Source of the DNA: an uncultured Methanosarcinales archaeon
GTDB lineage: Archaea; Nanobdellota; Nanobdellia; Woesearchaeales; GW2011-AR9
NCBI GenBank assembly: GCA_964632045.1
Contig: CAZWBB010000001.1
Location: 1 to 64,000, forward strand
DNA: 64,000 bases
Direction: 5' to 3'
The notes under the pieces were generated by a model, which was given only the letters and a program-made list of their open reading frames with translations, did not search any database and was not told the origin of the DNA. The translations under genes were made by a program, and so were the position numbers. Shown here piece after piece: positions 1 to 33,620 of the stretch (positions within the stretch are counted from its first letter, which is position 1; every line of letters starts with the position of its first letter).

Positions 1-156
1 GTGGGGGGAAATAATTCACGTTCACAATATCCCTCTCGGGCGGCTGGTTTCTACTGTAGCAATGACAACTTCCGTGTGGATGGCGATGGCAGCCTCGACG
101 ACCGGGGTCGTTCTCGTGGGGTGATTTATCCGCGAAGCGGCGAAACGAAAAAATGA
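1..156 (+). CDS. 3' fragment of a leader-family paralog (array A); C-terminus ...GRSRGVIYPRSGETKK
   Basis: Nt 1-150 are ~85% identical to 770-905, the C-terminal coding region of the next paralog. Stop TGA at 154-156 overlaps ATG 153 (ATGA). Confidence 0.6.
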   Translation: MGGNNSRSQYPSRAAGFYCSNDNFRVDGDGSLDDRGRSRGVIYPRSGETKK

Positions 157-908
157 ACATACTCAAACCACTACGACAATCAGGACTGCTTTCCGAAGAG
201 GAAGCGTTGAGAGACCTAGAGGACATCCCAATGGTGAGAGAAACATCCTCCCCGATCCCCTCAGGAAAGGATACTGGAAACATCATTCTTGATTGCCATG
301 CTGCTGAGAAAGGAGATAGAAGAACTCAGGATGAATGGATTGAATATTGGAATAAAAGTGACAGAGTAATGGCTTCCATGGCAGACTATTATCAGTATTT
401 CAAGCAATTGAAAGGGAATAATGATGAAGACAAAGTCAAGACGTTGCTTACCAGCCTGAGGGAAGATTTTGACCACCAGGAAAAAGGTAACTGGCTCATT
501 AGCAGTACCAGATTAGTCTATTCAAAAGATAATCTGGATGCAAGGATCATTCCTCATTATGGATGCGCTCGAGAGGAAGTAACAATAAAAGTTCCTTATT
601 ATGGTGGCGTCCCTATTACGCAGGTGGTCGGCGAGGGAGAAGGATTAACTTATCTGCAGACATTGTTTGGTACTGAGGATGAAGGGGAAGAGATAATTCA
701 GATATTGGAGTTTGTTAGCGATAGGAATAGAGACGTAATAAAAGTGTGGACGGCTGCTGTGGAAGACGCTTATACACGTTCACAATACCCCTCGCGGGCG
801 GCTGGTTTCGGCTATGGCGATGACGACTTCCATGTTGGTGGCGGCCTCTACGGCCGAGGTCGTTCTCGTGGGGTGATTTATCCGCGAAGCGGCGCGACGA
901 AAAAATGA
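153..908 (+). CDS. Leader-family paralog, subfamily B (N-term MNILKPLRQSGLLSEEEALRDLED; C-term GRGRSRGVIYPRSGATKK)
   Basis: ORF with conserved 25-aa N-terminal leader. Its body is similar to 2619..3347 (EWIEYWNK...MADYYQYFKQLKG). ATGA overlap with the next gene. Confidence 0.8.
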   Translation: MNILKPLRQSGLLSEEEALRDLEDIPMVRETSSPIPSGKDTGNIILDCHAAEKGDRRTQDEWIEYWNKSDRVMASMADYYQYFKQLKGNNDEDKVKTLLTSLREDFDHQEKGNWLISSTRLVYSKDNLDARIIPHYGCAREEVTIKVPYYGGVPITQVVGEGEGLTYLQTLFGTEDEGEEIIQILEFVSDRNRDVIKVWTAAVEDAYTRSQYPSRAAGFGYGDDDFHVGGGLYGRGRSRGVIYPRSGATKK

Positions 909-1768
909 ACATACTCAAACCATTAAGACCATCAGGACTGCTTTCTGAGGAGGAAGCGTTGAAAGATATAGAGAGTGCTCCTGATGCAGAAATTCCCAGA
1001 GACGATAACAAACAAGAAGTACAGGAAATGGGGAATAAACATCTCAGATTAGGTGTTGATTACGGACTGATCTACATCGACCGTGCTACCAGTGACCTGG
1101 TCATTACCGATGGGAAAGATTTTGAAGTCATTCTGAGGGAAGTAAATCTCAATGACGTATTCTATGATGAAAAACTCTACTACACAAAAGATTGCAGCCT
1201 GTATGAATGGCCATCCAGATTGCTGCACGACTACGGTGTGAACGGAACAGGTGGTAAAGAGGCTGTAGGTATCGGCAAACATGACGGAAGACTCATTGTC
1301 ACTCTTCCCTATGTTGGTGAGATCGCTGATGAGCAGGGCAACATAATCTTTGAAGGATTGCAGCAACCCATCAGTGTCTGTTCCTACAAAGGAGAATTAT
1401 ACCACACTGAAGCGTCCCAGGGCAGAGGCCTGGTGAAGACGCCTTATCAGCTTGTTCATCGGCCAGGCAGGTACGCCCTAGGACTTGCTGCTGGGGAAAA
1501 AATATTTTTTGGGGGAGAAGATGAAACATTATACAGCTATGACGGACAGGTGCAACGTGTATGTAATCTGGGATCAACCTGCGGTCTCCTGGAATGTGTT
1601 GGAGATGTTCTCTACGCAGCAGGCCTCCATAAGATAGGCATCCACTCCATCCCATTAGATGATCCATCAGCAAGGAAGACTTTACTGCGAGGACATGTGC
1701 CTGAGGGTATAAGGGCAATGACAGCTGTCCCTATGACTTTCATACATGAACTAAGCGAAAACAAATGA
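905..1768 (+). CDS. Leader-family paralog, subfamily A (putative beta-propeller-like repeats; LYYT..LYEWPS motif)
   Basis: Conserved N-terminal leader. Repeated LY(Y/F)T and GxxY blade-like motifs. Conserved C-terminal V.PMTFI motif shared with 6500, 7291, 8124, 8978 and 9810. Confidence 0.8.
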   Translation: MNILKPLRPSGLLSEEEALKDIESAPDAEIPRDDNKQEVQEMGNKHLRLGVDYGLIYIDRATSDLVITDGKDFEVILREVNLNDVFYDEKLYYTKDCSLYEWPSRLLHDYGVNGTGGKEAVGIGKHDGRLIVTLPYVGEIADEQGNIIFEGLQQPISVCSYKGELYHTEASQGRGLVKTPYQLVHRPGRYALGLAAGEKIFFGGEDETLYSYDGQVQRVCNLGSTCGLLECVGDVLYAAGLHKIGIHSIPLDDPSARKTLLRGHVPEGIRAMTAVPMTFIHELSENK

Positions 1769-2622
1769 ACATCCTAAAACCACTTAAACACGGAAACGTA
1801 CTGACGGAAGAGGAAGCGTTGAAGGATTTGGAGAATGCATCATCTACATCTCAGAATATTCCGATTACTGAAAATGTTTCTGAGACGACGTATTCCTGCT
1901 CAACCCTGGGAATTGATTGCGGACTAGTGTTAATCAATAAGACCAACCAGGAGATTTGTACAACTGATGGTGAAGATGTAACTTGTATCGGTAGAGAAAG
2001 AGGCTACCACAGATTGCACTACAACGGAACTGACTTGTATTACACCCGACATAACAAACTATACAGATGGCCTAGTCAGGAAGTCCAGAAGTATTATTAT
2101 AAAAAGAAAGCTGAGTGTACATCTGGTATAACTGAGTATGATGGAGAGACTCTAGTAGGTTTCCAGGATGGCATCTATAATGAAAAAGGAGAACGAAAGT
2201 ATGGGTCCGGACCCGTCAAGGACTTGATCAGATTTCAGAACAGACTATTCAGCATTCAGTTATGGAGAGGCAAATATTCATTTGTGGAAGTAGGAGTGGA
2301 AGCAAAGAAAGAAATAACATTCAGATCAAGGCTTGCTAAAATGGATGACCTTCTTTTACTGGGGCTTGAATGCGGCTCCGTCTTTTCATTTGATGGTGTA
2401 GACATGAGCCTGGTTTTCGCCTCCAACAGCCAGCAACGTTTATTATGTGCAACAAGTGATCGCCAGATGTATTTTGGCGGATTTGGCGAGGAAGGACTAT
2501 GGACACGTTCTTTGTATCCCCGGAGAAAGTCAGAGGCAATATTGCAGGAAAAGATCAAGAGTTGCACAGCAGGTATCACAGTACCACTTGATTTCATAGA
2601 ACACTTAAACAAAACAAAATGA
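1765..2622 (+). CDS. Leader-family paralog, subfamily A
   Basis: N-term MNILKPLKHGNVLTEEEALKDLE. LYYTRHNKLYRWPS motif. ATGA overlaps on both sides. Confidence 0.8.
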   Translation: MNILKPLKHGNVLTEEEALKDLENASSTSQNIPITENVSETTYSCSTLGIDCGLVLINKTNQEICTTDGEDVTCIGRERGYHRLHYNGTDLYYTRHNKLYRWPSQEVQKYYYKKKAECTSGITEYDGETLVGFQDGIYNEKGERKYGSGPVKDLIRFQNRLFSIQLWRGKYSFVEVGVEAKKEITFRSRLAKMDDLLLLGLECGSVFSFDGVDMSLVFASNSQQRLLCATSDRQMYFGGFGEEGLWTRSLYPRRKSEAILQEKIKSCTAGITVPLDFIEHLNKTK

Positions 2623-3347
2623 ACATCCTAAAACCACTTAAACACGGAAATGTAATGACTGAAGAGGAAGCGTTGAAGGATTTGGAAGGTGTACCATCCA
2701 TAGAACCAGTGAGTGCTGCGGATCAGCCGACTGGACTTGGAATCGTCCTACTCGATCAAGGTAATTCAGAAGACTCAAAAACCCAGCCTGAGTGGCTAGA
2801 ACATTATGACAAGATCACTGATGGTCGTGTATTCGCTGCTATGAGCGACTATTACGGATTCTTCAAACGGAAGATGGATCAGAAAACCGACAAACAGTAC
2901 GCTAAGGCGATGTTATGGCCCAATAATATTTCAGAATGCGACAGTCATCTTCTTACCAGCACCAGGATCGAACTCTTGCCATCCGGTCACACAAAAATAA
3001 TTCAACATTACGGCTGCAAGTATCCAGAACATATCAGCAAAAGAACTATCGTCGCACCGGTATTACACAAGATACCCCTCTCAGAAGCGATCAGGACAAA
3101 TTCGGCAAGGAGATACCTAAAAGCTCTGTTTGACACCGAAGACAAGACCGTCAAAATAATCCAAACGCTCGAGTTTATCGCAGGTGTAGACAGGAGAGAC
3201 ATAACCATTTCCACAATCCCCGATCCTCCCAGCCCTATTGAAAGTGATCAGAGAGCATCCGGGTTCAATTGTTTTTCCTCGGGGCTCGATATCTATACCT
3301 ACTCCCTTATAGGTGTGGGGCAATCACGAGGAGCATCTTACCCATGA
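2619..3347 (+). CDS. Leader-family paralog, subfamily B
   Basis: Same leader. Body is paralogous to 153..908 (EWLEHYDK...MSDYYGFFKRK; C-term GVGQSRGASYP). Confidence 0.8.
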   Translation: MNILKPLKHGNVMTEEEALKDLEGVPSIEPVSAADQPTGLGIVLLDQGNSEDSKTQPEWLEHYDKITDGRVFAAMSDYYGFFKRKMDQKTDKQYAKAMLWPNNISECDSHLLTSTRIELLPSGHTKIIQHYGCKYPEHISKRTIVAPVLHKIPLSEAIRTNSARRYLKALFDTEDKTVKIIQTLEFIAGVDRRDITISTIPDPPSPIESDQRASGFNCFSSGLDIYTYSLIGVGQSRGASYP

Positions 3348-4030
3348 ACATCCTAAAACCACTTAAACACGGAAATGTACTGACGGAAGAGGAAGCGTTG
3401 AAAGATATAGAGAGTGCTCCTGAGGTACTGGATAGCCCGCCGGGAACATGGAACACTATGCCTGAATTTCCAACCTATGGGCAGGCAATCACCCACATTG
3501 GATTGGAATATGCAAAAGGATATTGTAAAGGTCCACTTCACCAACACAATGACAGGACTATGATCCGCCCGCCCACCGTTAAAGAAATCGCGAAAGCCTG
3601 CGTTGAGGACTACGAAACAACAACTACTGCTGATAGTAGCAACCGAAGTGTCGAAGACAGGACTTTCCTGCTGAGAAGTAAGTGGAATACCTGCGCAGCT
3701 ACCATCAATAGTTTCTGGTCTGATAAATGGAAAATAAACCCAGTCTCCGATGAACTTATAACACTGGACAAAAGCACAGAAGTAAGGTATTCAAAGCTTG
3801 AATGGAATGTATTCAGTCTATTGGAAGTAGAAGGACGTGACTTCTGGAGGATTCTTATTAGTGATGATTCTTTGTATCAAGCATATCAAAAGATTGTCAG
3901 TCCGTATGGTCCGTTGGAAGTGGAGATAGAAGAACCATCAAAACAATACCTCAGAAACATCCGGGTTGAAGGGCAGAAACTGGTATTCTGTCCATTGAAT
4001 ATTACAGCAAGGTTCCTGGCAATAAAATGA
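3344..4030 (+). CDS. Leader-family paralog, subfamily C
   Basis: The internal ATG at 3344 restores the conserved leader MNILKPLKHGNVLTEEEALKDIESAP. The track ORF start at 3269 is a 5' run-on. Body is paralogous to 4027..4719 (MIRPPTVKEIAKACVEDYET...). Confidence 0.8.
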   Translation: MNILKPLKHGNVLTEEEALKDIESAPEVLDSPPGTWNTMPEFPTYGQAITHIGLEYAKGYCKGPLHQHNDRTMIRPPTVKEIAKACVEDYETTTTADSSNRSVEDRTFLLRSKWNTCAATINSFWSDKWKINPVSDELITLDKSTEVRYSKLEWNVFSLLEVEGRDFWRILISDDSLYQAYQKIVSPYGPLEVEIEEPSKQYLRNIRVEGQKLVFCPLNITARFLAIK

Positions 4031-4719
4031 ACATCCTAAAACCACTTAAACACGGAAATGTACTGACGGAAGAGGAAGTGTTGAAAGATATAGAGAGTGC
4101 GCCGATCGTTGACAGACCCATAGAGACTTCCAGATACGTTTGCATACGGGAACGCAATAACTATAAGGGAGCTCTTAATTCGCTGTTAATTTATCATGCT
4201 GCCTGCAGACGCAGCGGTCCGCTCTACGAGCATGATGGAAAGATGATAATACGGCCTCCTACAGTAAAAGAAGTAATACAGGCTAGAGTTGAGGATTATG
4301 AAACGCTCACCAATCCGGATGGCAGCAAGAGAAGTCTGGAGGAGAGGACCTGCTTGATTAGAACAAGTTTCAACACCTGCGCCGGTGTTTTGTTCAATCC
4401 TCATACTCAAAAATTAAAACTGAACCCTCTCTGCAAAGAATTGATAACACTGAACAGATCTTGTGGACGTAGAATATTCTATCAGGATTTTGAGGGCGAA
4501 GAATACTACCCTGGTGGTCTGATTGGACCTGATCGCTGGAGGATTTTTACTGAGGATGAGCAGTTACGTCAGGCATACTGGAATATCTCTAATACTGTGG
4601 ATACACCGAAGGAGCCAGTTCAAACTCCGGAAAAATACTTGAACAATGTTAGAGTTGGAGGAACTACTCTTACATTCTATCCCCTAAGCAAAAAAACAAC
4701 ATTCCTGCAGATAAGATGA
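4027..4719 (+). CDS. Leader-family paralog, subfamily C
   Basis: The leader nucleotides are almost identical to 3344-3420. Body is MIIRPPTVKEVIQARVEDYETLTNPDGSKRSLEER. Confidence 0.8.
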   Translation: MNILKPLKHGNVLTEEEVLKDIESAPIVDRPIETSRYVCIRERNNYKGALNSLLIYHAACRRSGPLYEHDGKMIIRPPTVKEVIQARVEDYETLTNPDGSKRSLEERTCLIRTSFNTCAGVLFNPHTQKLKLNPLCKELITLNRSCGRRIFYQDFEGEEYYPGGLIGPDRWRIFTEDEQLRQAYWNISNTVDTPKEPVQTPEKYLNNVRVGGTTLTFYPLSKKTTFLQIR

Positions 4720-6506
4720 CATTAGAACAACTGACACAAGACATAGTGGACGAAGAAACAGCAAAGTTTGATTACAAAGGAGATGTCCGTATCAAAGAGC
4801 AGATGGGAGATCCCTGCTTCTCCGGAAGGATCGACCTGCTGACAACTGCTAAGATAGAGATCTGCTACAATCCGGATTATGAGAAAGAAGCAGAATCCAT
4901 GGAGAAGATTGTCCCTCAACCTTTCAGGAAAGCTTTCACTGCAGTGATGCAGCACGAGCTGAACCATAAAGGGGGAGGAAGATTCCTTGGCTGTCCCAGG
5001 ACGATTGATCTGCACGCAGAGAAAGTTCTGGAACCAGTTTCGGAAGTGCTGAAAAGGGAGGATTTCCCTAACGTACCTGTGAGCAGCGGACAGACACTCT
5101 ATGCCTATATGGCAAATATGGTTGAAGATATCATCGACAATTCTGAACTTGGCAACAAAACGGACCATATCGGTATGTTTCTTTGCTACCATGATGATGC
5201 TATTCATTGTAAAGAAGGATTAAGTCCCCTCTTCAGCGCCTTTGTCAAGCTGCAGGAAGTTCTCTTCGGCGGGAGAAGAAGCAGGAAGCTGTTAAATGGC
5301 CACCATCCGAAAGATGACAAGGTTGACCAGGCGGTTGAAAACGTCATGCAACGCACAGGGATGAGCAGGATGCAGCGTCAGGTTGTTACAAGAAGGAAGA
5401 AGAAAAGAAAAGATGTATTTGACCGAAGGAGGGCAATGGAGCACTACACAGATGAAGAGAACTGGCCGGAAATATCCAAGATCATCACGGAAGAGTTCTG
5501 CGAACTGATCGACAAGGATGAACTTGAAAATCCACAATACATCGAGGAAACCTTCCTTCCACTTAAAGGAGAAGGCGACTCCTTCGGCGATGAGATGGAG
5601 GACGCTGACACTAAGATGAAGTTTGTCTGGAAGAAGTATCAGGGCAAAGGACAGGAATCCGGCGAGGATGATACTGAATTCCAACCACCCGCCTATCTGG
5701 AAAGCTTCGAAGCTCTTGACCTGCTCTATCAAAGATTGGCCAGGAATCTCCACATTAAGACGGAAAGCTCTACTCACAGTGAATCGATGCCAGTGATGTG
5801 GTACGGTAACCGGCCGGCAACACCAAGAGACAGGAGGGTAAGAGTCCGACTGGGAAGAGACGGTTGTCTTGAGCTGACTGCCAAGAGATATCATGAGGAC
5901 GAAGAGATCGAGTACACTGAAAGCATGCCCGGTCTGCCCGAGATAAAGTTTGTCATGCTGGATACCTCTTCCTCGATGCAATGTAGTATCGATGGCAGCC
6001 AGGGGAAGATCATGAATCCCTGGGCCTCCGAAAGTGTACAGTGGGATGATCGAAGCCGATACCATCATGCCCTTATCGCCTGGTATGGGCTGCTGGAACT
6101 GCTGCGGAGACAGGGAACATTGCGACACACTTCCGTAAAGCTTGCCAACTATTCCTGGGAGACCAAGAAAGCGGTCAATCTGAAAGAGGCCAAAAGGCTG
6201 GCCTTGAGTCCTCAGTTCGGAGGAACACAACTTGAACTACCTCAGATTAGGGACATGTTTGGTACAAAGCAGTTGGTAATCTCATTATCTGATGGAGATG
6301 TGATGAACTGGTATGACATAAAGACAGAATACATCAAACGGGCCAGGAACAACCATTATTTCCATCTACAGATAGGTGGGCAGAGTAATATGTCCATGGA
6401 TCTGGAGAAGGCAGGATTGCATGTGGTCTATGATGATGGCAGCAACCTGGGCAATATTGTTGTTGATCTGACAAAACCGTTTATCGTGAGGAAGAAGAAA
6501 TGGTAG
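4716..6506 (+). CDS. HExxH putative zinc metallopeptidase N-domain fused to a vWA domain (DUF2201-like architecture)
   Basis: HELNH motif (AVMQHELNHKGGG). MIDAS DxSxS (VMLDTSSSMQ) plus downstream GGT and SDGD vWA motifs. Embedded in array A with ATGA overlap at 4716-4719. Confidence 0.75.
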   Translation: MTLEQLTQDIVDEETAKFDYKGDVRIKEQMGDPCFSGRIDLLTTAKIEICYNPDYEKEAESMEKIVPQPFRKAFTAVMQHELNHKGGGRFLGCPRTIDLHAEKVLEPVSEVLKREDFPNVPVSSGQTLYAYMANMVEDIIDNSELGNKTDHIGMFLCYHDDAIHCKEGLSPLFSAFVKLQEVLFGGRRSRKLLNGHHPKDDKVDQAVENVMQRTGMSRMQRQVVTRRKKKRKDVFDRRRAMEHYTDEENWPEISKIITEEFCELIDKDELENPQYIEETFLPLKGEGDSFGDEMEDADTKMKFVWKKYQGKGQESGEDDTEFQPPAYLESFEALDLLYQRLARNLHIKTESSTHSESMPVMWYGNRPATPRDRRVRVRLGRDGCLELTAKRYHEDEEIEYTESMPGLPEIKFVMLDTSSSMQCSIDGSQGKIMNPWASESVQWDDRSRYHHALIAWYGLLELLRRQGTLRHTSVKLANYSWETKKAVNLKEAKRLALSPQFGGTQLELPQIRDMFGTKQLVISLSDGDVMNWYDIKTEYIKRARNNHYFHLQIGGQSNMSMDLEKAGLHVVYDDGSNLGNIVVDLTKPFIVRKKKW

Positions 6507-7294
6507 AGACTCTAAAACCATTAAGAAAAGGACCAAGAATCCTCACAGAGGAAGAAGTCTTGGCTGATCTGGCAGGATTACAGGAGCAACCAAATTCATC
6601 TGAAGAAGAAAAGTGGAAAGGATTAGGAATCGATTATTGTCTTGCATTTGCAGATGATATGATCCGATGTACCGATGGAAACCGATCAGACGTGTTTCTG
6701 GAAGAGAGAACTGATTGCCTGACTTACAGCAGCCAGTTGTATTACATAATGGAAGAATCACTTTACAGATGGCCAAAAGAACAGATATTTGACTTTCAGA
6801 AAGCACCACATGGGGTGGCTGCGTACCAAGACGGAGTTGTTATCTCATTTCCATTTTCAGTCTGTGATCAGGGAGGTAATACAATCTTTGAGAACAGGAA
6901 ATCTTTCATAAATCTGATAGAAGTGTTCAACGGAGAGATATACTATGCTACCGGCGTGAACAATGGCGAACTTGTAAAAGCTCCAAATACTTCGATAGAA
7001 ACATTTGGCGAACCACTATTCGGAATCACTACTTCAGAAAATAACTTGTATATCTCCGGACGTCATAATATTTACCGATACGATGGCAAATCTGTAAAAA
7101 GGATATTTCAATATGATGGCCAGATACAATGCATAAAATATGTTCAAGATGTAAGTGGCGAATATCTGTTCATTGGAAATACAAATGAAAATATCGTCCG
7201 CCTATACTTGCAGAATACAAAAAACAAAACATACATCCCTGATACAAAATCTGCATCTTCGATAGCAGTAATACCCATGACCTTTGTAAAATGA
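6500..7294 (+). CDS. Leader-family paralog, subfamily A (variant leader MVETLKPLRKGPRILTEEEVLADLAG)
   Basis: LYYIMEESLYRWPKE motif. C-term IAVIPMTFVK. Confidence 0.75.
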   Translation: MVETLKPLRKGPRILTEEEVLADLAGLQEQPNSSEEEKWKGLGIDYCLAFADDMIRCTDGNRSDVFLEERTDCLTYSSQLYYIMEESLYRWPKEQIFDFQKAPHGVAAYQDGVVISFPFSVCDQGGNTIFENRKSFINLIEVFNGEIYYATGVNNGELVKAPNTSIETFGEPLFGITTSENNLYISGRHNIYRYDGKSVKRIFQYDGQIQCIKYVQDVSGEYLFIGNTNENIVRLYLQNTKNKTYIPDTKSASSIAVIPMTFVK

Positions 7295-8127
7295 ACATCC
7301 TTAAACCATTAAAACGCGGAAATGTACTGACGGAAGAGGAAGTATTGAAAGATATTGAGCAGATTTCCAGTGAGAGGTCTACCCCGAACAATAAACCTAA
7401 GGGCGCTGTCATGAAAGGGTTGGGGAAGGATTATGGATTAGTTTTCTGTGAAGAGGAGACTCTATATGCTTCTTTGGACGGAGAAAGTTCTACCATCGTT
7501 GGCAAAGGAAAATACAATGACTTCTTTTTTGACGGAGATGATCTTTATTACACAACTGGAAATGACTGCTTTAGATGGCCAAATGAAAACATATTTTCTG
7601 CAGAAAAACCTCTTTGGGGAATCTGCAAACACGAAGGAAGAATAATTGTAGCCTGTCCAGAAAGGAAAATGATACTGAGAGATTATGGAAGCCCTGATTA
7701 TCATGCACACCGTCCAGTTGGAATTGCCTCCTACAAAGGCCAGCTTTTTTGTACTTCGGAAGAACCAGATGGATTGATTAGGCTACCAAACGAGCTGATA
7801 GCTTCATGCGGAAGCTATACCGATGGAATCTGCGTACTGGAAGACATATTATACTTTGCCGGACAGAATGGAATCATCTATCAATATGATGGAAATGATG
7901 TTAAAGAGAAATTCAAATTACGAAATAAGTTTGGCTCCACGGAACCGATATTCAAATTAGATGGAGTTCGAGATAATACGGGAGATGTAATATATGCTTC
8001 ACTGGGCCCGGGGACACGAGTTATTAATCTAACTGCTTTGACAGCTAAGACTATCCTTAAGAATCACTCCGGAGCAAAATCAGTAACTGTAGTGCCTCTC
8101 GATTACCTTAAGAACATGATAAAATGA
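7291..8127 (+). CDS. Leader-family paralog, subfamily A
   Basis: MNILKPLKRGNVLTEEEVLKDIE leader. LYYTTGNDCFRWPNE motif. C-term VTVVPLDYLKNMIK. ATGA overlaps. Confidence 0.8.
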   Translation: MNILKPLKRGNVLTEEEVLKDIEQISSERSTPNNKPKGAVMKGLGKDYGLVFCEEETLYASLDGESSTIVGKGKYNDFFFDGDDLYYTTGNDCFRWPNENIFSAEKPLWGICKHEGRIIVACPERKMILRDYGSPDYHAHRPVGIASYKGQLFCTSEEPDGLIRLPNELIASCGSYTDGICVLEDILYFAGQNGIIYQYDGNDVKEKFKLRNKFGSTEPIFKLDGVRDNTGDVIYASLGPGTRVINLTALTAKTILKNHSGAKSVTVVPLDYLKNMIK

Positions 8128-8990
8128 ACATCCTTAAACCATTAAAACGCGGAAATGTAATGACGGAAGAAGAAGTATTGAAGGAGTTAGAGAATGTTCC
8201 TGATAGCAATAATGCTCCAGAGGAGGTAGATGTTGCATCTCCGGATGATCCTGGAGAGACATTCCATGCCCTGGGAATCGATTATGGACTGATCTTTGCC
8301 AGCAATGGGCGAATCTTCACATCCAGAGATGGACAGGAGGTAAAAGAGATCCGACGTAAGGCTGGTGGGGGTATTCTCTATCAGAACAAAAATCTACACC
8401 ACTCATCTGGTAATGAGGTTGTCCAGTGGCCTGACGGAAACACGTATACTTTTGAGGATGAAGTAACGGGTATCAATCAATATCATGGAAGGATATTCAT
8501 AACGCTTCCAGGAAAAATCTGCAATCTTCAGGGAAGAACGATAGCTGAAGCAGAGAGAGCAAAACAAGCAACCTTCTATTGCGGCGACCTGTGGTATATC
8601 TCTAAAGGCAAGCTTCATACAAAACATTTTACGCGTAAGACATGGATGCCTGAGATGGACACCCACCATGAGAAAGTCCTTGCGGAATTTGAAGATTCAT
8701 TGTATACGAGCTGCAGCCAACAGGTGTTGGACAGATACCAACCTAGTGGAGTGCAGCACAGACTGTCCGGAAAATTTCCATATAATCCACACTGCATAAG
8801 AGGGATGAGAGACAGGGACGGAGTAAAAATCTTCTTAGGTACAGAATTTGGAATAAAGTCAATCAACATAGAAAAACCTGAAGATATCTGCAATTACTGT
8901 TCGGGATGGTCACACATTGTAACTTCGATCACTTTTGCTCCGATAGATTTCATAAAAAGACTTAACGCCGGCTCAAAATGGAAATACTAA
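8124..8990 (+). CDS. Leader-family paralog, subfamily A
   Basis: MNILKPLKRGNVMTEEEVLKELE leader. C-term ITFAPIDFIKRL. Confidence 0.8.
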   Translation: MNILKPLKRGNVMTEEEVLKELENVPDSNNAPEEVDVASPDDPGETFHALGIDYGLIFASNGRIFTSRDGQEVKEIRRKAGGGILYQNKNLHHSSGNEVVQWPDGNTYTFEDEVTGINQYHGRIFITLPGKICNLQGRTIAEAERAKQATFYCGDLWYISKGKLHTKHFTRKTWMPEMDTHHEKVLAEFEDSLYTSCSQQVLDRYQPSGVQHRLSGKFPYNPHCIRGMRDRDGVKIFLGTEFGIKSINIEKPEDICNYCSGWSHIVTSITFAPIDFIKRLNAGSKWKY

Positions 8991-9826
8991 AACCCCTAAA
9001 ACAAGGAAACGTACTGACAGAGGAGGAAGCTTTACGCGATCTGGGATACTATGATGACGAAGAGATGCCCACGACGGAATTCCAGGTTCCTGGATTCAGG
9101 ACAAGATTAGGAAAAGATTATGGATTGGCTCTCATAAATCGAGGATCCTGTGATCTTTGCACCACTGTTGACGGCAATACGGTATTCACTTATCCCTCAC
9201 AGAGAGGATACCATAAACTATTCTTTGATGAAAACCTCTATTTCACAAGAAACAAAACATTATACAAATGGCCATCTGAGAAGGTTTCATCTTTTGCTGC
9301 AAATGCTTTTGGTGTATGCAAACTGGAAGGTATGTTTGCTGTTGCTCTGGAAGACGGCATCATAGTGCATAATAATGCTTTTCCCAACATCAGAACCACT
9401 TATAGACTGCATGACCTGGTCAATTTCAAAAGTTGCTTCTACTCAACCACAGAAGATGGCAAACTGCTGGTGACCTACCCATCGGATACTCCATCAACAT
9501 ACGAACTTTCTATCCCTCAGGCTTTGTGCTTGAAGGCAACGGATGACATCCTGTACATAGGTGGGGCTGATGGAAAAGTAACAGCAATGACAGAGGATGG
9601 TTCTGAAGAAGTCTGCCAGCTTTCTTCTGCCGTCCATTCAATGGAGATCGTGCAGGAGGACGGAGACATCAGGCTCCTCTACGTTGGAGGAGAGTTCAGG
9701 AAAGGCATCACGATCGTAAATTTGGCAAACAAGCTGAAGAAGAAGATATTGGAGGAGACAGTAGAAGGAGTGAGTTCGATCGTAAAGATACCTCTCACAA
9801 TGTTAGAAGATGACAGAAATACTTAA
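8978..9826 (+). CDS. Leader-family paralog, subfamily A
   Basis: MEILKPLKQGNVLTEEEALRDL leader. LYFTRNKTLYKWPSEK motif. C-term IVKIPLTMLEDD. Confidence 0.8.
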   Translation: MEILKPLKQGNVLTEEEALRDLGYYDDEEMPTTEFQVPGFRTRLGKDYGLALINRGSCDLCTTVDGNTVFTYPSQRGYHKLFFDENLYFTRNKTLYKWPSEKVSSFAANAFGVCKLEGMFAVALEDGIIVHNNAFPNIRTTYRLHDLVNFKSCFYSTTEDGKLLVTYPSDTPSTYELSIPQALCLKATDDILYIGGADGKVTAMTEDGSEEVCQLSSAVHSMEIVQEDGDIRLLYVGGEFRKGITIVNLANKLKKKILEETVEGVSSIVKIPLTMLEDDRNT

Positions 9827-10688
9827 ACCACTGAGACATGGAAATGTACTTACAGAAGAGGAAGTGTTGAAGGAGTTAGAGAACTACGTTCCACCAAAAA
9901 GGGATTCCCGGGATGATCCAGAAGACTGCCTCATCTCAGGATTAGGAACAGATTATGGATTGATCTTCATCGATGAAGAGGGCACTCAGATACGTACTAC
10001 TTTGGATGGGATGGAGTACCAAACAGTATGTGAAGATACAACGGAACATGAGACAGCACATGCAATAACACCTAATACATTCAACTGCCTCTACGTTGAT
10101 GGGGACGAACTATACTTCACCAAAAGAAATGCTCTTTTCAAGTGGCCCGATCTCCAGATCGCAAAATTTGGATCGCTGGCGGAAGGTATTACAAAGAAAG
10201 GTGATAGGTTTTATGTTACACTTAAGGAAGGATCCATCGTCAATCATCTGCTTGAAGGAATCTCCTTCCGCTTGACCAATCCCTGCCAGTTAACTGTAAT
10301 GGGCGCCGGTATATACCACACAGAAGGAGATAGAGGAAGGGGGCTTGTAAAAACCTGTGTAAAATCTCTCTTCAATCCCAAATGCTGGATGAGCGGCTTG
10401 ACTTCCCTCGATAAAAAGATCTACTGTGGTGGGGGAGATATGAAAATCTACTCCCATAGCCATTCTAGTACTGAAACGCTATTCGAAACTGACTTTGGCA
10501 TATGGAGTCTAAAAGCGATAGAACATGACGGTCAACAGATTCTCTTCGCCGGTGGAGAATGCCACCCGGGAATTCTGGTAGTTGACATCAAAAAGAAGGA
10601 AAAGATGTCCACACTTCTGGAAGGCATGCTTGATGGAGTTTCCTCAATCGTTACGGCTCCACTTGAGTTGATTGAAAGGATGAATTAA
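9810..10688 (+). CDS. Leader-family paralog, subfamily A (last array member in window)
   Basis: MTEILKPLRHGNVLTEEEVLKELE leader. LYFTKRNALFKWPD motif. C-term IVTAPLELIERMN. Confidence 0.8.
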   Translation: MTEILKPLRHGNVLTEEEVLKELENYVPPKRDSRDDPEDCLISGLGTDYGLIFIDEEGTQIRTTLDGMEYQTVCEDTTEHETAHAITPNTFNCLYVDGDELYFTKRNALFKWPDLQIAKFGSLAEGITKKGDRFYVTLKEGSIVNHLLEGISFRLTNPCQLTVMGAGIYHTEGDRGRGLVKTCVKSLFNPKCWMSGLTSLDKKIYCGGGDMKIYSHSHSSTETLFETDFGIWSLKAIEHDGQQILFAGGECHPGILVVDIKKKEKMSTLLEGMLDGVSSIVTAPLELIERMN

Positions 10689-12265: not shown

Positions 12266-12763
12266 TCACTCCATCTTCCAGAGATCATCTCCCACATAAT
12301 GGATGTTCTTGATAACTTTCCCTTCTGTCATCTCCCTCATCTCTTCTCCGGAAAACATGGTTACTCCAACAGCAAGCGGTTTTCTATTATCCACGTCGAG
12401 AATAACAACAAAATTTCCTTCAGCAATCCCTTCCTCGATATTTGTTATACCGGGCCGCATCACGTCTGCTCCATTGATGACAAATTTTATGGCTCCCATA
12501 TCCACGACTATTCTCTTAAGTAGAAAGACATTTTCCTGTAAGTATTTCAATGTTGGAACAGGATTGCCTTCATAAAAAAAGAATGATGGTTGCTTATTGA
12601 TCAGAATTATCTTCTTATCTTCATCCTCCTGAAGTTCTACCTGATCCTTTTTGCTGAGATGGATTGCGTAGTGTTCCAGTTGCCGATTCGCTTCTTTGCT
12701 TTTAAGATGAGTACGTTTCATGATACTGCCAATATGAAGAATCATATAAACTTTGTTCTCCAC
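12266..12763 (-). CDS. PUA-domain RNA-binding protein
   Basis: IKFVINGADVMRPGI PUA signature. N-terminal MKRTHLKSKE...LSKKD is typical of the archaeal PUA family. Alternative start near 12718. Confidence 0.65.
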   Translation of the reverse strand: MENKVYMILHIGSIMKRTHLKSKEANRQLEHYAIHLSKKDQVELQEDEDKKIILINKQPSFFFYEGNPVPTLKYLQENVFLLKRIVVDMGAIKFVINGADVMRPGITNIEEGIAEGNFVVILDVDNRKPLAVGVTMFSGEEMREMTEGKVIKNIHYVGDDLWKME

Positions 12764-12815
12764 TACAACAAAATTTATAAATACAGCATATACTTCTCCT
12801 GCCAGTTGGGGAAAG

Positions 12816-13793
12816 ATGCCAGAAATCGATTACTTCGGAGAAAAGGAATTCTGCGAGAGTGAGCGCTATAATATGAAGAACTTTCTTGGAGCAGGAGCGG
12901 CTGGAGAGGTATATAAAGTCGGTGACAATACTGCCGAGAAGATTACCCTAATCAGGGATTTTGCTTACAAAGACCACATCTCTCCAAAAGTCAGCAGGTT
13001 GCATGATGTAAGATATTTGGGGGGTCATATCTTACAAGTCGACGACAATCTTCTGCAGCTTACGGATGATGAGCTGAAGAGATTCAGGGAATCATTGTAT
13101 GAGGCTAACATGCTGAGAGAAGCGGATGCTAGGAATGTAGTCAGGCTTAATGAACATAAATATGTAGAATGTCGGGGAGACATATATTCTGTCATCGAGA
13201 TGGAATTTGTCAAAGGAGACTCTCTTCATGACGCTACTATAAGCAACCTTGAAGACAAACTGAAGGCTCTTCGCGACGTGGCAGATGCAATATCAGACAT
13301 TCACAAGCAGAAGATAATTCACAGGGATGTCAAGCCAGCCAATATAATATATACTAAGGACAAAGTTCCGGGAGAGGGAAAAGCTACTTTGATAGATTTC
13401 AGTCTTGCCACAAGAGGGTACGGTTCCATCAAACACGAATATGCTCAGTTGCTAACTAATGAGAGTATCCTCCGCTCCAGGCTATCTGCCGGAACCCTCG
13501 GATACATTGCACCGGAAGTGGTCCGTAGCAGGATGATGAGTCCCATGAATGACATTTTCTCATTTGGATTGGTGGCTTACAAAGTGCTGATGCAGAAAGA
13601 GCCATTTTCCGGCGACGAAGAGACCGCATTACGGCAGATAAGAGACTATTGTGATATCGACAAGGAGATCTTCATGTCACGGATGTGGAAAAGTGGGTTT
13701 TCACATTCTCTTTCGGAAGCCTGGGGACAGATGATGTCAGAGGATCCTGACGAGAGGGAGATTAATTCTTTTTATGGTGAGTTGGTCAACTGA
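12816..13793 (+). CDS. Hanks-type Ser/Thr protein kinase
   Basis: GAGAAGEVYK gly-loop, HRDVKPANI catalytic loop, DFSLA, GTLGYIAPE. Start set at MPEIDYF (ATG 12816) with TATA TTTATAAATA about 40 nt upstream. Track ORF starts at 12753. Confidence 0.75.
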   Translation: MPEIDYFGEKEFCESERYNMKNFLGAGAAGEVYKVGDNTAEKITLIRDFAYKDHISPKVSRLHDVRYLGGHILQVDDNLLQLTDDELKRFRESLYEANMLREADARNVVRLNEHKYVECRGDIYSVIEMEFVKGDSLHDATISNLEDKLKALRDVADAISDIHKQKIIHRDVKPANIIYTKDKVPGEGKATLIDFSLATRGYGSIKHEYAQLLTNESILRSRLSAGTLGYIAPEVVRSRMMSPMNDIFSFGLVAYKVLMQKEPFSGDEETALRQIRDYCDIDKEIFMSRMWKSGFSHSLSEAWGQMMSEDPDEREINSFYGELVN

Positions 13794-31247: not shown

Positions 31248-32102
31248 ATGCTGTTTGAACTGGTGATGATGGCTTTGGCTATGGCTACTTTGGTAATAGC
31301 TTCTTTTACCGACCTCAAAACTAGAGAAGTCCCTGACTGGCTGAATTACGGACTTATTTTCGCTGCACTAGGCATCCGGTTTATTTATTCATTTGACCTG
31401 GGTTGGCAGATTATCCTAAGTGGCCTACTTGGATTCGTGGCCTGTTTTGTCTTGGCTTGCCTCTTCTATTACACACATCAATGGGGAGGAGGCGACAGCA
31501 AACTGCTTATGGGGATGGGTGCTGTTATCGGAATTACTTATCCTTTGAATAACAGCAGCTTTCTTTTATTGTGGTTTTTCCTAGCTTTGCTACTTTTAGG
31601 AGCATTTTTTGGAGTGATGTGGATGGGCGTACTGGCCATGAAACGGAAGGAACAATTCATGCAATCGTTCAAGAACAACCTGGGTGAATATCGAGGTGTG
31701 CATATTGGAGCAGGTGCGCTTTCACTGAGTTTTGCTATGATCAGTTTTGGCTTTATGCCCCTGTGGCCCATGGCAGTGCTACCGATCGCCTTTTTCTACC
31801 TTTTTACTTTCGTGACTGCCGTGGAAAGGAGCTGTTTCATCTCTGCAATCGATCCGATGAAACTTACTGCTGGCGACTGGCTGGCGGAAGACGTTTCTAT
31901 TGAAGGAAAGACGGTAGTTGCTAAGAAGACACTGGAAATGACAGAGGTAGAGAAGCTGAAACATCTGAAAAGGCAGGGCAAATTATCTTCAGTAGTGGTT
32001 AAGGAAGGTATCCCTTTCGTCCCTGCTTTTCTGCTGGCATACGTCTTCATCGTTATTGGTGGAGAGATGTTTAGTTGGGTCTGGGGTGTTGTTTTTGGGT
32101 AA
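31248..32102 (+). CDS. Type IV prepilin/preflagellin peptidase (A24 family, PibD/FlaK-like) with C-terminal extension
   Basis: FTDLKTREVPD catalytic Asp motif and HQWGGGDSKLL second Asp motif. Multiple TM helices. Confidence 0.75.
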   Translation: MLFELVMMALAMATLVIASFTDLKTREVPDWLNYGLIFAALGIRFIYSFDLGWQIILSGLLGFVACFVLACLFYYTHQWGGGDSKLLMGMGAVIGITYPLNNSSFLLLWFFLALLLLGAFFGVMWMGVLAMKRKEQFMQSFKNNLGEYRGVHIGAGALSLSFAMISFGFMPLWPMAVLPIAFFYLFTFVTAVERSCFISAIDPMKLTAGDWLAEDVSIEGKTVVAKKTLEMTEVEKLKHLKRQGKLSSVVVKEGIPFVPAFLLAYVFIVIGGEMFSWVWGVVFG

Positions 32103-32158
32103 CATTTTTAAATGATAGAAATTTAACTAATACTTTACAATATAAAAGAGGTGTCAAA

Positions 32159-32710: not shown

Positions 32711-32720
32711 AGGTGATAGA

Positions 32721-32951: not shown

Positions 32952-32962
32952 TCATTTTTTTC

Positions 32963-33586: not shown

Positions 33587-33599
33587 AAAATATATAAAG
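33587..33599 (+). promoter_or_regulatory. TATA box (AAAATATATAAAG) for the leaderless pilin-like gene at 33621
   Basis: 22-30 nt upstream of ATG 33621. Confidence 0.45.
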
Positions 33600-33620
33600 A
33601 TTTCCCCATTTCAACGACTG

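What the first reader, a model, noticed from the sequence alone, without database searches (positions are those of the whole stretch)
1..10688. Array A: 13+ tandem, ATGA-coupled paralogs sharing a 25-aa N-terminal leader on three unrelated bodies
Every gene from 153 to 10688, plus a fragment at 1-156, begins MNILKPLK(H/R)GNVLTEEEALKD(L/I)E. The following C-terminal regions fall into at least three sequence-unrelated groups: a beta-propeller-like LYYT..LY.WP family (7 members); an EWIEYWNK...YYQYFK family (2 members); and an MIRPPTVKE...VEDYET family (2 members). The first ~75 nt of different members are near-identical in a mosaic pattern, which points to ongoing gene conversion or cassette exchange rather than purifying selection alone. 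Examples: 1765-1840 vs 2619-2695; 3344-3421 vs 4027-4104; 930-985 vs 3390-3421. Consecutive genes overlap by ATGA with no Shine-Dalgarno sequence. A shared short terminal peptide fused to diversifying bodies is the pattern seen in conflict or secretion systems, such as polymorphic toxins, though here the conserved end is N-terminal.
Basis: seen in the sequence. Interest (0 to 1): 0.85.

Follow-up and report, generated by a model that had tools for sequence, protein, structure and literature searches.

The report
Tagged binding-protein array in DPANN archaeon
Eleven back-to-back genes in a tiny symbiotic-type (DPANN) archaeon encode unrelated binding proteins that all start with the same 25-residue tag; they surround a conserved VWA-domain protein in a gene cluster found across DPANN archaea that often carries its own targeted-hypermutation retroelement, which suggests a plug-in molecular-recognition system.

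Summary
There are 11 complete leader-bearing genes plus one C-terminal fragment, not 13+. The gene at 4716-6506 has no leader.

That gene is the conserved core. It encodes a 596-aa protein with an invariant HExxH motif and a VWA domain with a complete MIDAS site.

About 80 DPANN loci carry the same cluster: small RHH/AbrB protein, AAA+ ATPase, tagged protein(s), VWA protein, tagged protein(s). A DGR template repeat and reverse transcriptase lie next to 20 of 32 complete loci.

All tagged genes in a locus share one N-terminal peptide, even when their bodies are unrelated. The same body families carry different tags in other lineages.

- **Body A** is a six-bladed YWTD-like β-propeller. The tag lies outside the fold.
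- **Bodies B and C** belong to families that are proven DGR targets in relatives.

Synonymous sites are saturated in the bodies (0.40, equal to chance). They are much less diverged in the leaders (0.65 overall, up to 0.92 between unrelated bodies). This supports recombination or gene conversion at the leader DNA.

Best reading: the tag docks interchangeable binding modules onto the VWA/AAA+ machine. That step is inferred, not shown. No cognate AAA+, template repeat or reverse transcriptase lies in this window.

The parts
1..156 (+). 3' end of a type-B tagged gene (B0), cut by the window edge. It contains a VR-like segment at about 14-110.
   Evidence: Translation. It is 84-88% identical to 772-912; the differences fall at codon positions 1 and 2 of N/D/G/Y/S/H/C codons, and there is a 6-nt indel.
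153..908 (+). Tagged gene B1: leader, linker and a type-B body. Type B is a family of DGR targets in relatives. The VR-like segment is at about 772-860.
   Evidence: The family ends in the ERVARF...SLGVR-type motif seen in proven DGR targets.
905..1768 (+). Tagged gene A1: leader plus a six-bladed β-propeller body. Its leader is a mosaic of a B1-like 5' half and a C1-like 3' half.
1765..2622 (+). Tagged gene A2 (β-propeller body).
2619..3347 (+). Tagged gene B2 (type-B body). It shares no nucleotide-level VR with B1.
3344..4030 (+). Tagged gene C1 (type-C body). This family is DGR-targeted in L012 and L047. The true start is the ATG at 3344, not the upstream TTG.
4027..4719 (+). Tagged gene C2 (type-C body).
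4716..6506 (+). Leaderless core gene V (596 aa). The N-terminal alpha/beta domain has an invariant HExxH motif (H80, E81, H84). The C-terminal VWA domain has a complete MIDAS site (D416-x-S418-x-S420, T504, D526).
6500..7294 (+). Tagged gene A3 (β-propeller body). Its leader is diverged: MVETLKPLRKGPRILTEEEVLADLAG.
7291..8127 (+). Tagged gene A4 (β-propeller body). This is the gene that was modelled.
   Evidence: AlphaFold pLDDT 89.6, six blades. Foldseek matches the LRP2, LRP4 and LRP6 YWTD propellers with TM 0.6-0.66.
8124..8990 (+). Tagged gene A5 (β-propeller body).
8978..9826 (+). Tagged gene A6 (β-propeller body). It overlaps the upstream gene by 13 nt.
9810..10688 (+). Tagged gene A7 (β-propeller body), the last gene of the array. 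It overlaps the upstream gene by 17 nt.
   Evidence: No template-repeat-like sequence follows it.

Best explanation
Array A is an expanded copy of a gene cluster conserved across DPANN archaea.

**The canonical cluster.** It consists of a small RHH/AbrB-type regulator, an AAA+ ATPase, one or more 'tagged' proteins, a roughly 600-aa protein (V) with an HExxH domain and a MIDAS-bearing VWA domain, and more tagged proteins. A DGR template repeat and reverse transcriptase often follow.

**The tagged proteins.** Each has three parts:
- a roughly 25-residue N-terminal tag, made of a short extended piece followed by an acidic amphipathic helix;
- a disordered linker;
- a ligand-binding-type body.

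**What I infer.**
- The tag is a system-specific docking or recognition peptide. It couples interchangeable binding modules to the V protein and its AAA+ partner. The most plausible contact is between the tag's invariant acidic residues and the VWA MIDAS site, as in other AAA+/VWA pairs.
- The machine may then remodel the bound module, or the HExxH domain may cleave it.
- This genome appears to hold a germline repertoire of at least 12 modules of three folds, rather than (or in addition to) hypermutating two or three targets with a DGR.
- Every body is flanked by the same 75-nt leader DNA. Homologous recombination or gene conversion between leaders therefore homogenises them and can shuffle, duplicate or delete whole cassettes.

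**Shown:** the anatomy, conservation, modularity, folds, DGR targeting in relatives and excess synonymous identity in the leaders.

**Inferred:** physical docking of the tag to V/AAA+, any cleavage, and the biological role. That role could be sensing of invaders or host/partner recognition.
For: 1. **Conserved context.**
   - V has 44 homologues in the protein collection, and all those that carry a source name are DPANN or unclassified archaeal MAGs.
   - 89 genome stretches encode a relative of V and 80 loci were kept. Nearly all their record titles name DPANN lineages; a minority are labelled Methanosarcinales and one Saccharibacteria.
   - An AAA+ gene lies upstream on the same strand in 50 loci, and a DGR-type RT is present in 37.
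   - The usual gene order is AAA+, tagged gene, V, tagged gene, then RT where present.
2. **The tag belongs to the locus, not the body.** In about 60 loci the genes on both sides of V share a locus-specific N-terminal peptide even when their bodies are unrelated. Examples are L010, L013 (11 genes), L026 (9), L032 (7) and L036 (10).
3. **The same bodies carry other tags.**
   - Type-B bodies occur in 50 loci and type-C bodies in 8, with different tags.
   - Type-A propellers occur with YDPNLAEKIN-, GKRPEGAIERAL- and N.RFLELA-type tags.
   - These propellers sit in canonical operons in L094 and L095.
   - Among locus pairs that share a body family, the tags are similar in 109 of 163 pairs when the V proteins are similar, but in 2 of 271 pairs when they are not.
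4. **The tag lies outside the fold.** It is a coil plus a helix of low pLDDT, followed by a disordered linker and then a six-bladed propeller. No protein in the array has a transmembrane or signal-like hydrophobic segment.
5. **V has a VWA fold and an invariant MIDAS site.**
   - D416, S418, S420, T504 and D526 are invariant across 36 homologues.
   - The fold matches include NorD in the NorQ-NorD complex, the MDN1 MIDAS domain and BchD.
   - E15-E17 are invariant among the window's seven type-A tags, and E17 is the only one invariant across the LKPL-type tags of six relatives.
6. **DGR link.** In L006, L008, L012, L019, L025 and L047 a single template repeat matches the 3' ends of the tagged genes. 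In L012 (4), L019 (3) and L025 (5) it matches every tagged gene detected. Mismatches are all or almost all at template adenines.
7. **Expansion as an alternative to a DGR.** An RT is adjacent in 1 of 6 arrays with five or more tagged genes, against 19 of 26 small loci (Fisher p=0.018).
8. **Concerted evolution of the leader DNA.** The fraction of identical codons at identical amino acids is 0.65 in leaders (up to 0.92) against 0.40 in bodies, which is the chance level. Leaders cluster by physical adjacency rather than by body type.
9. **A second, sequence-unrelated system in the same window follows the same logic with the tag at the other end.** An AbrB-like gene, 11 genes with a shared C-terminal tag, an AAA_5 ATPase and a VWA/HExxH protein lie on the minus strand.
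Against: - No interaction between the tag and V or the AAA+ has been measured or modelled. Conserved co-location is compatible with other roles for the tag.
- The cognate AAA+ is not in the 64-kb window. A contig from a metagenome that also holds identical pieces of this genome may be the head of this array; there an AbrB-like gene is followed directly by tagged genes with no AAA+.
- No RT or template repeat is present in the window. The DGR link for this array therefore rests on homology and on the VR-like differences between B0 and B1.
- Assignment of the relatives' AAA+ to the MoxR class is weak. Pfam AAA_3 and AAA_5 matches are below threshold. The PDB profile search hits Clp D2 modules about as well as a MoxR (4e-5 against 4e-4).
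- The zincin fold of V's N-terminal domain rests on the invariant HExxH motif plus low-probability Foldseek hits only.
- The correlation between tag and V could simply reflect fast divergence of a short peptide along the same phylogeny.
Confidence: 0.55

Rival explanations
1. The leader is a degron or propeptide. The tagged proteins are substrates rather than docked partners. The AAA+ engages the unstructured N-terminus, and the HExxH domain of V removes the tag or degrades the protein. In effect this would be a split FtsH-like protease with a VWA adaptor. Ligand binding by the body might modulate turnover.
For: The HExxH motif is invariant in 36 V homologues. There are weak fold hits to the zincins DPP III and MATCAP. 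The AAA+ profile matches Clp D2 unfoldase modules best. The first 14 residues are unstructured and a flexible linker follows the tag. LKPL-type tags end in a recurring L-E-(G/S/N)-(A/V/Y/M)-P pattern.
Confidence: 0.15
2. The leader is a non-classical export or surface-display signal. The bodies would be adhesins or receptors that the episymbiont presents to its host cell, and the AAA+/VWA pair would act as an assembly or export chaperone.
For: DGR targets of DPANN archaea have been proposed to mediate cell-cell attachment (PMC6349945, citing Paul et al. 2017; read). YWTD-type propellers and DGR-target binding domains are typical extracellular binding modules. Many VWA structural neighbours are pilus-tip adhesins such as SpaC, Mfa5 and RrgA. 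A MoxR/VWA pair has been linked to extracellular tail development of an archaeal virus (PMC7159879, citing Scheele et al. 2011).
Against: The tag is acidic and has no hydrophobic core, and no protein in the array has a transmembrane segment. No transporter, secretin or sortase-like gene is conserved in the cluster.
Confidence: 0.15
3. The leader is a homo- or hetero-oligomerisation helix that bundles the paralogues into mixed multimers. It would act independently of V and the AAA+.
For: A short amphipathic helix (residues 15-27) is predicted. All paralogues of a locus share it, which would allow mixed assemblies.
Against: A 13-residue helix predicted with low confidence is short for a stable coiled coil. 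This model does not explain the strict flanking of V on both sides, or why tag similarity between loci is seen only where V is similar.
Confidence: 0.08
4. The conserved element acts at the nucleic-acid level, for example as a translational-coupling or initiation signal or an RNA structure at each gene junction. The peptide would be a by-product.
For: Nucleotide identity in the leaders is high, and ATGA junctions imply termination-reinitiation coupling.
Against: In relatives the peptide is conserved through different codons and different residues of similar character (LKPL..G..LTEEEAL in L006, L008, L012-L014 and L016). Three leaders in this very array are only 55-70% identical at the nucleotide level yet keep the peptide. 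In array B the shared tag sits at the 3' end of each gene rather than at a start codon, with only modest codon identity of 0.51.
Confidence: 0.03

Closest known systems
MoxR-vWA 'ternary' conflict systems of bacteria with DGR-diversified C-type-lectin/FGS domains (Kaur, Burroughs, Iyer and Aravind 2020, PMC7159879; Doré et al. 2024, PMC10907252)
   Same: An AAA+ ATPase, a MIDAS-bearing VWA protein and a DGR-diversified binding domain lie in one cluster. A peptidase-type motif is present. Short adaptor modules link variable parts to a constant core.
   Different: - The variable domain here is not fused to the VWA protein. It sits on separate small proteins joined only by a 25-residue tag.
- No VMAP, iSTAND or FtsH component is seen.
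- The hosts are DPANN archaea, not multicellular bacteria.
- The AAA+ is only weakly MoxR-like.
[quoted passage not shown]
DGR variable (target) proteins of Nanoarchaeota and Woesearchaeota (Paul et al. 2015, PMC4372165; Handa et al. 2016, PMC5006420, AvpA)
   Same: Body families B and C are homologous to proteins whose 3' ends match a template repeat with adenine-specific mismatches. One locus, L049, comes from SCGC AAA011-G17, a genome studied by Paul et al..
   Different: - No TR or RT lies in this window.
- AvpA's CLec fold starts at residue 8, with no tag, and it is not detectably related by sequence.
- The papers I could read describe neither the shared tag nor the AAA+/VWA context. Paul et al. 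2017 was not available.
AAA+/VWA chaperone pairs: NorQ-NorD, CbbQ-CbbO, BchI-BchD and Midasin with Rsa4/Ytm1
   Same: The VWA domain uses its MIDAS site to hold an acidic residue of a client, and the AAA+ ring then remodels the client. V's VWA domain superposes on NorD, MDN1-MIDAS and BchD.
   Different: Those systems serve one dedicated client. This one would serve many interchangeable clients marked by a common tag. V also carries an extra HExxH domain.
Phage receptor-binding proteins and polymorphic toxins (conserved N-terminus, variable C-terminus)
   Same: A constant N-terminal attachment part is joined to swappable C-terminal parts. Recombination occurs at the conserved part.
   Different: The constant part here is only about 25 residues. 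The bodies are not toxins and no immunity genes are present. No relative of V was found in IMG/VR viral contigs, and the flanking genes are cellular housekeeping genes.

Membership tests
DGR target (variable) protein | A 3' variable region matched by a template repeat, with mismatches confined to template adenines | tested here: inconclusive
   The window holds no third (TR) copy; only 1-160 and 772-912 match each other. Their differences are VR-like: 11 at codon positions 1 or 2 against 2 at position 3, by my reading of the alignment. In relatives (L006, L008, L012, L019, L025, L047) the feature is met.
DGR target (variable) protein | A DGR-type reverse transcriptase near the target | tested here: not met
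   tblastn with the L008 RT finds nothing in the window at E<=1. An RT is adjacent in 20 of 32 complete related loci.
DGR target (variable) protein | Homology of the body to proven targets | tested here: met
   This holds for types B and C only. jackhmmer gives 111 hits in 50 loci for B and 24 hits in 8 loci for C, including targets with adenine-specific TR/VR pairs. Type A has no proven DGR-target relative.
MoxR-type AAA+ / VWA system | A VWA domain with a complete MIDAS motif (DxSxS...T...D) | tested here: met
MoxR-type AAA+ / VWA system | An adjacent MoxR-class AAA+ ATPase | tested here: not met
   No homologue of the relatives' AAA+ lies in the window. In relatives an AAA+ is adjacent in 50 loci, but its MoxR assignment is weak: AAA_3 and AAA_5 are below cut-off, the MoxR 2r44 scores E 4e-4 against 4e-5 for ClpE, and AAA_5 plus AAA_lid_2 are the precomputed Pfam families in L095.
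VMAP / iSTAND / FtsH ternary conflict systems (Kaur et al. 2020) | A third core component (VMAP, inactive STAND or FtsH), with effector domains fused to the vWA protein | tested here: not met
   Pfam and PADLOC return nothing for the array proteins. V has no C-terminal effector after its VWA domain. No such gene appears in the conserved order.
Zincin metallopeptidase (N-terminal domain of V) | An HExxH motif plus a third zinc ligand in a zincin fold | tested here: inconclusive
Six-bladed YWTD-type β-propeller (body A) | Six four-stranded blades, with structural superposition on known propellers | tested here: met
   The AlphaFold model has pLDDT 89.6 and about 24 strands. Foldseek matches LRP2, LRP4 and LRP6 propellers at E about 1e-7 and TM 0.6-0.66. 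The profile also hits Kelch, WD40 and Reg_prop proteins.
Polymorphic toxin system | A variable C-terminal toxin domain followed by a cognate immunity gene | tested here: not met
   The bodies are a propeller and two DGR-target families. The genes abut each other with 4-17 nt overlaps, leaving no room for small immunity genes.
Sec/Tat or archaeal class III signal peptide | A hydrophobic core in the N-terminal peptide | tested here: not met
   Leader net charge is -1 to -3. The maximum Kyte-Doolittle 19-residue mean is below 1.4 in all the proteins.

The most novel reading that the evidence does not exclude
DPANN archaea may possess a modular, antibody-like recognition system. In this reading a constant hub (AAA+ ATPase plus a VWA/HExxH protein) accepts interchangeable receptor modules through a 25-residue N-terminal docking tag. 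The receptor repertoire would be generated in one of two ways: somatically, by a DGR acting on two to five tagged targets, or in the germline, by leader-mediated recombination that builds arrays of 10 or more tagged receptors of different folds. The system would sense invaders or partner cells and answer through ATP-driven remodelling or proteolysis. This window would hold two independent systems of this logic, one tagged at the N-terminus and one at the C-terminus.
Probability: 0.3. Interest if true: 0.88.

Novelty: new variant of a known kind. Interest (0 to 1): 0.75.

Why it matters
The function of DGR targets in DPANN and CPR organisms is an open question. The literature calls these targets exceptionally diverse, with little known about their function (PMC5758913). 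[quoted passage not shown]

The evidence here places many of these targets, together with non-DGR propeller modules, inside one conserved cluster with an AAA+ ATPase and a MIDAS-bearing VWA/HExxH protein. It also identifies a short tag that is the only feature the variable proteins share.

This makes the question directly testable:
- Does a synthetic 25-mer bind the VWA protein?
- Does the HExxH domain cut it?
- What do the bodies bind?

The data also suggest two routes to the same kind of diversity: hypermutation, or a recombining cassette array. Finally, they give a concrete example of how a short repeated coding segment drives concerted evolution and domain shuffling.

Tried and rejected
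- **Pfam and PADLOC scans of the array proteins:** nothing above threshold.
- **Single-sequence search with 7291-8127 in the word-indexed collection:** only the protein itself and one paralogue. The exhaustive profile search was needed to find relatives.
- **Leader-only profile search in the 5.8-billion-protein collection:** The 44-residue version gave no hit at E<=0.01, because a short profile lacks power at that database size.
- **Sequence searches of B1, the L006 target and the type-B profile against PDB chains:** no meaningful hit, and no link to AvpA, TvpA or Mtd. The fold of types B and C therefore remains unassigned. A C-type-lectin fold is only a guess.
- **BLASTP between V and the array-B VWA protein:** no significant similarity. 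The V and AAA+ profiles do not detect the array-B components either.
- **Recovering DNA upstream of the window:** the exact-product look-ups for 153-908 and P0001 were not on record. Look-ups for V gave only contigs of about 4 kb. A metagenome scan with B1 gave one distant, untagged homologue.
- **Viral origin:** rejected for now. No relative of V was found in IMG/VR, and the window's flanks are housekeeping genes.
- **Foldseek against AFDB50:** this library was not available.
- **Paul et al. 2017 (Nat Microbiol):** could not be read. I cannot exclude that it mentions the AAA+/VWA neighbours.

Full report
**1. Checking the observation**

The + strand from 1 to 10688 is one uninterrupted run of overlapping genes.

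Eleven of them begin with almost the same 24-26 residues, MNILKPLKHGNVLTEEEALKDLE and close variants. They are 153-908, 905-1768, 1765-2622, 2619-3347, 3344-4030, 4027-4719, 6500-7294, 7291-8127, 8124-8990, 8978-9826 and 9810-10688.

The repeat finder reports the leader DNA as 10 copies of a 69-nt unit, 70-96% identical to the reference copy.

Three details in the finding need correction:
- The 596-aa gene at 4716-6506 lies in the middle of the array and has no leader.
- The fragment at 1-156 is the C-terminal end of a type-B gene, so its start is not visible.
- The window therefore shows 11 complete tagged genes plus one fragment, not '13+'.

Nine of the 12 junctions are ATGA overlaps. The other three overlap by 7, 13 and 17 nt. 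Shine-Dalgarno-like motifs are scarce before genes everywhere in this window, so their absence here is not a property of the array.

**2. The three bodies**

The seven type-A proteins align over their full length at 27-34% identity. B1 and B2 are 35% identical, and C1 and C2 are 39% identical. Profile-profile comparison of the three body families gives probabilities of 0.1%, 0.4% and 12%. 'Unrelated by sequence' therefore holds.

*Type A.* An AlphaFold model of 7291-8127 was built on 30 sequences and reached pLDDT 89.6. Residues 41-278 form a six-bladed β-propeller. Its best solved neighbours are the YWTD propellers of LRP2, LRP4 and LRP6, with E about 1e-7 and TM 0.6-0.66.

The leader is not part of that fold. 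Residues 1-14 are coil, residues 15-27 form a helix of low confidence, and residues 27-40 are disordered.

No protein in the array has a hydrophobic segment that could be a signal peptide or membrane helix.

**3. The leaderless gene is the key**

The 596-aa protein (V) has 44 homologues at 31-62% identity. All that carry a source name are from DPANN or unclassified archaeal MAGs.

In an alignment of 36 homologues the invariant residues include H80-E81-x-x-H84 and a complete MIDAS set: D416-x-S418-x-S420, T504 and D526.

The AlphaFold model (pLDDT 88.8) has a C-terminal VWA domain:
- Foldseek hits the VWA domains of CLCA1, TFIIH p44, Rpn10 and NorD.

For the N-terminal domain there are only weak Foldseek hits to the zincins DPP III and MATCAP. 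A peptidase function is suggested by the motif but not established.

**4. The cluster is conserved across DPANN archaea**

A scan of one genome per species found 89 stretches encoding a relative of V, and 80 loci were kept. Nearly all record titles name Woesearchaeota, Pacearchaeota, Nanoarchaeia or Micrarchaeota. A minority are labelled Methanosarcinales and one Saccharibacteria, and I did not check those binning labels. One locus comes from SCGC AAA011-G17.

In these loci:
- An AAA+ ATPase gene lies upstream on the same strand in 50 loci, and a DGR-type reverse transcriptase is present in 37.
- The usual order is a small RHH or AbrB-like gene, AAA+, tagged gene(s), V, tagged gene(s), then TR and RT.
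- Related expanded arrays exist: L013 (AAA+, 7 tagged, V, 4 tagged), L036 (AAA+, 10 tagged, V), L026 and L032.

The AAA+ is a genuine AAA+, with Walker A and B motifs and PDB profile hits. Its subclass is uncertain:
- ClpE scores 4e-5, the MoxR 2r44 scores 4e-4 and CbbQ scores 0.02.
- Pfam AAA_3 and AAA_5 are below cut-off.
- AAA_5 and AAA_lid_2 are the precomputed Pfam families for the L095 protein.

No relative of V was found in IMG/VR viral contigs.

**5. The tag belongs to the locus, not to the body**

A de novo comparison of N-termini shows the pattern clearly. In about 60 loci the genes on both sides of V share a locus-specific peptide of about 25 residues, whether or not their bodies are related.

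The tag differs between lineages:
- LKPL..G.vLTEEEAL.dLE in the window and in L006, L008, L012-L014 and L016
- KYDPDLA..vNeE
- FAGFSeEDA
- IPd.FMGkPieGAmErvL
- FGi.TeEAY
- NPWKYv...NPY

By eye, most variants share a Gly, a few residues, then an acidic amphipathic helix, followed by a Pro-rich or highly charged linker.

The body families are shared across these lineages:
- Type B is found in 50 loci and type C in 8.
- Type-A propellers were invisible to the word-indexed search. The exhaustive profile search found 24 proteins at E<=1e-30, seven of them the window's own paralogues. It also found weaker hits to other propellers.
- The type-A relatives carry the other tag types.
- Two of them, looked up in their contigs, sit in canonical operons: L094 with a 49-aa ORF, AAA+, three tagged genes, V and two more; L095 with a 73-aa ORF, AAA+, two tagged genes, V and one more.

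Among pairs of loci that share a body family, the tags are recognisably similar in 109 of 163 pairs when their V proteins are similar, but in only 2 of 271 pairs when they are not.

A type-B homologue found alone, away from any V or AAA+, lacks the tag.

**6. Link to diversity-generating retroelements**

In L006 and L008 the two tagged proteins flanking V are near-identical except for their last 30 or so residues. A third copy of that segment lies between the last tagged gene and the RT. Within the matched segment, mismatches to that copy fall only at its adenines.

The same holds in other loci:

| Locus | Body type | Targets matched by one TR | Mismatches |
|---|---|---|---|
| L012 | C | 4 | 10, 10, 10 and 15, all at adenines |
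| L047 | C | 3 | mostly at adenines |
| L025 | B | 5 | almost all at adenines |
| L019 | B | 3 | almost all at adenines |

Body families B and C are therefore bona fide DGR-target families.

In the window itself there is no RT and no third copy. The ends of the fragment B0 and of B1 (14-160 against 772-912) do differ in a VR-like way. By my reading of the alignment, 11 differences fall at codon positions 1 or 2 and 2 at position 3, in N/D/G/Y/S/H/C codons. The C-termini of C1 and C2 lack the N/D/S/Y-rich stretch seen at that position in the DGR-targeted relatives (by eye).

Across 32 loci with complete flanks, an RT is adjacent in 20. It is adjacent in only 1 of 6 arrays with five or more tagged genes, against 19 of 26 smaller loci (Fisher p=0.018). 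It is adjacent in 2 of 8 loci with more than one body family, against 18 of 24 (p=0.03). These loci are not phylogenetically independent. The pattern nevertheless suggests that paralogue expansion and hypermutation are alternative ways of diversifying the same kind of protein.

**7. Gene conversion or cassette exchange**

At positions where two paralogues have the same amino acid, the bodies use the same codon 39.7% of the time. That is exactly the 39.8% expected from codon usage, so synonymous sites in the bodies are saturated.

The leaders use the same codon 64.6% of the time overall. The figure is 80-92% among the genes at 1765, 2619, 3344 and 4027, whose bodies are of types A, B, C and C, and 89% for the pair 7291 and 8124.

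Leader similarity follows physical adjacency, not body type. The leader at 905 is a mosaic of a B1-like 5' half and a C1-like 3' half. Three leaders (6500, 8978 and 9810) are much more diverged, at 55-73% nucleotide identity to the others. Homogenisation is therefore local and recent, not universal.

Each body is bracketed by leader DNA. Unequal crossing-over or conversion between leaders is thus the natural mechanism. It would also duplicate, delete or reorder whole cassettes.

A contig (L092) from a metagenome that also holds pieces identical to this window shows a different neighbourhood. An AbrB-like gene is followed by two type-A genes, and then by a gene whose first 146 nt are 95% identical to B1. 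This is either the head of this array (with that gene being B0) or a strain with a different cassette order. I could not decide between the two.

**8. How it most likely works**

*Shown:*
- the modular anatomy (tag, linker, body);
- sharing of the tag among unrelated bodies within a locus;
- different tags on the same body families in lineages with divergent V;
- strict flanking of a MIDAS-bearing VWA protein;
- an AAA+ partner in relatives;
- DGR targeting in relatives;
- concerted evolution of the leader DNA.

*Inferred:* the tag is the docking or recognition peptide that couples interchangeable binding modules to V and its AAA+. In characterised AAA+/VWA pairs the VWA MIDAS site holds an acidic residue of the client (established knowledge of NorQD, CbbQO, BchID and Midasin; PMC7159879). 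The acidic core of the tag is conserved: E15-E17 are invariant among the window's type-A genes, and E17 across the LKPL-type relatives.

Whether the modules are stably docked sensors, are remodelled, or are cleaved by the HExxH domain is open.

The cytoplasmic, signal-less nature of all the parts resembles the bacterial MoxR-vWA systems with DGR-diversified lectin domains, which have been proposed as invader sensors (PMC7159879; PMC10907252). That favours an intracellular recognition role. The adhesion idea proposed for DPANN DGR targets (PMC6349945) cannot be excluded.

*Main weaknesses:*
- No interaction has been measured.
- This window contains no cognate AAA+, RT or TR.

**9. A second system in the same window**

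A second, sequence-unrelated system on the minus strand (49495-63902) repeats the logic with the tag at the other end. It consists of an AbrB-like gene, eight genes and then three more that all end in (I/L)(I/V)(D/N)PW.V(E/D)(I/V)PEI..(V/I/L)L, an AAA_5 ATPase and a VWA protein with an HEADH motif. It lends indirect support to reading such tags as client marks for AAA+/VWA machines.

**10. Novelty**

The ingredients are known: DGR targets in Nanoarchaeota and Woesearchaeota, AAA+/VWA pairs, and DGR-linked MoxR-vWA systems in bacteria.

What I could not find in the searchable literature:
- the shared terminal tag;
- the DPANN AAA+/V cluster around the targets;
- the recruitment of non-DGR folds such as the propeller by the same tag;
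- the inverse relation between array size and RT presence.

One relevant paper, Paul et al. 2017, could not be read.

I therefore file this as a new variant of a known kind, of high interest to people working on DGRs, DPANN biology and AAA+/VWA systems.

Noticed in passing
window 49495-63902, minus strand: A second array ('array B'). It consists of an AbrB-like gene (63699-63902), eight genes (56381-63702), an AAA_5 ATPase (54948-56444), three genes with an N-terminal hydrophobic segment (51836-54932), a VWA protein with an HEADH motif (50073-51839) and a 186-aa gene. All 11 paralogues end in the same C-terminal peptide, (I/L)(I/V)(D/N)PW.V(E/D)(I/V)PEI..(V/I/L)L; the gene at 60750-61769 carries it twice. 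The identical-codon fraction in this tag is 0.51. Its VWA and AAA+ proteins are not detectably related to those of the array-A system.
   Followed up: partly
L092 6455-8441 (JGI 3300009374, which also holds contigs L002 and L091 carrying proteins identical to the window's): An AbrB-like 58-aa gene is followed directly by two tagged type-A genes, and then by a gene whose first 146 nt are 95% identical to window 149-291. This may be the missing head of array A, with no AAA+, or a strain with a different cassette order. The AbrB-like gene is 79% identical in DNA to the one heading array B.
   Followed up: partly
protein P0066 (705 aa), from the exhaustive search: A ThiF/E1-like domain (Pfam E 9e-31) is fused to a type-A propeller body at residues 349-607. 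This hints at a link between this propeller family and ubiquitin-like activation.
   Followed up: no
L006 6419-14100: A phage-type integrase gene lies directly upstream of the RHH, AAA+, tagged gene, V, tagged gene, TR and RT cassette, and the RT is split into two ORFs. The cassette may be mobile in some lineages.
   Followed up: no
L093 7857-8672: A lone type-B homologue (37% identical to B1) has no LKPL tag and no AAA+ or V neighbours. It lies among housekeeping genes of a groundwater contig.
   Followed up: partly
window 12753-13793 and 41145-42893: Two eukaryotic-type Ser/Thr protein-kinase-like genes. Pfam Pkinase scores 6e-20 for the second. The first was judged by eye from its HRDVKPANI motif.
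   Followed up: no
window 31248-34172 and 34700-36739: A prepilin-peptidase-like membrane protein followed by small proteins with archaeal pilin-type N-termini. Next to them, on the opposite strand, is a 679-aa Cys-rich protein with an N-terminal hydrophobic segment. These could be surface structures of the episymbiont. They were judged by eye from the translations.
   Followed up: no
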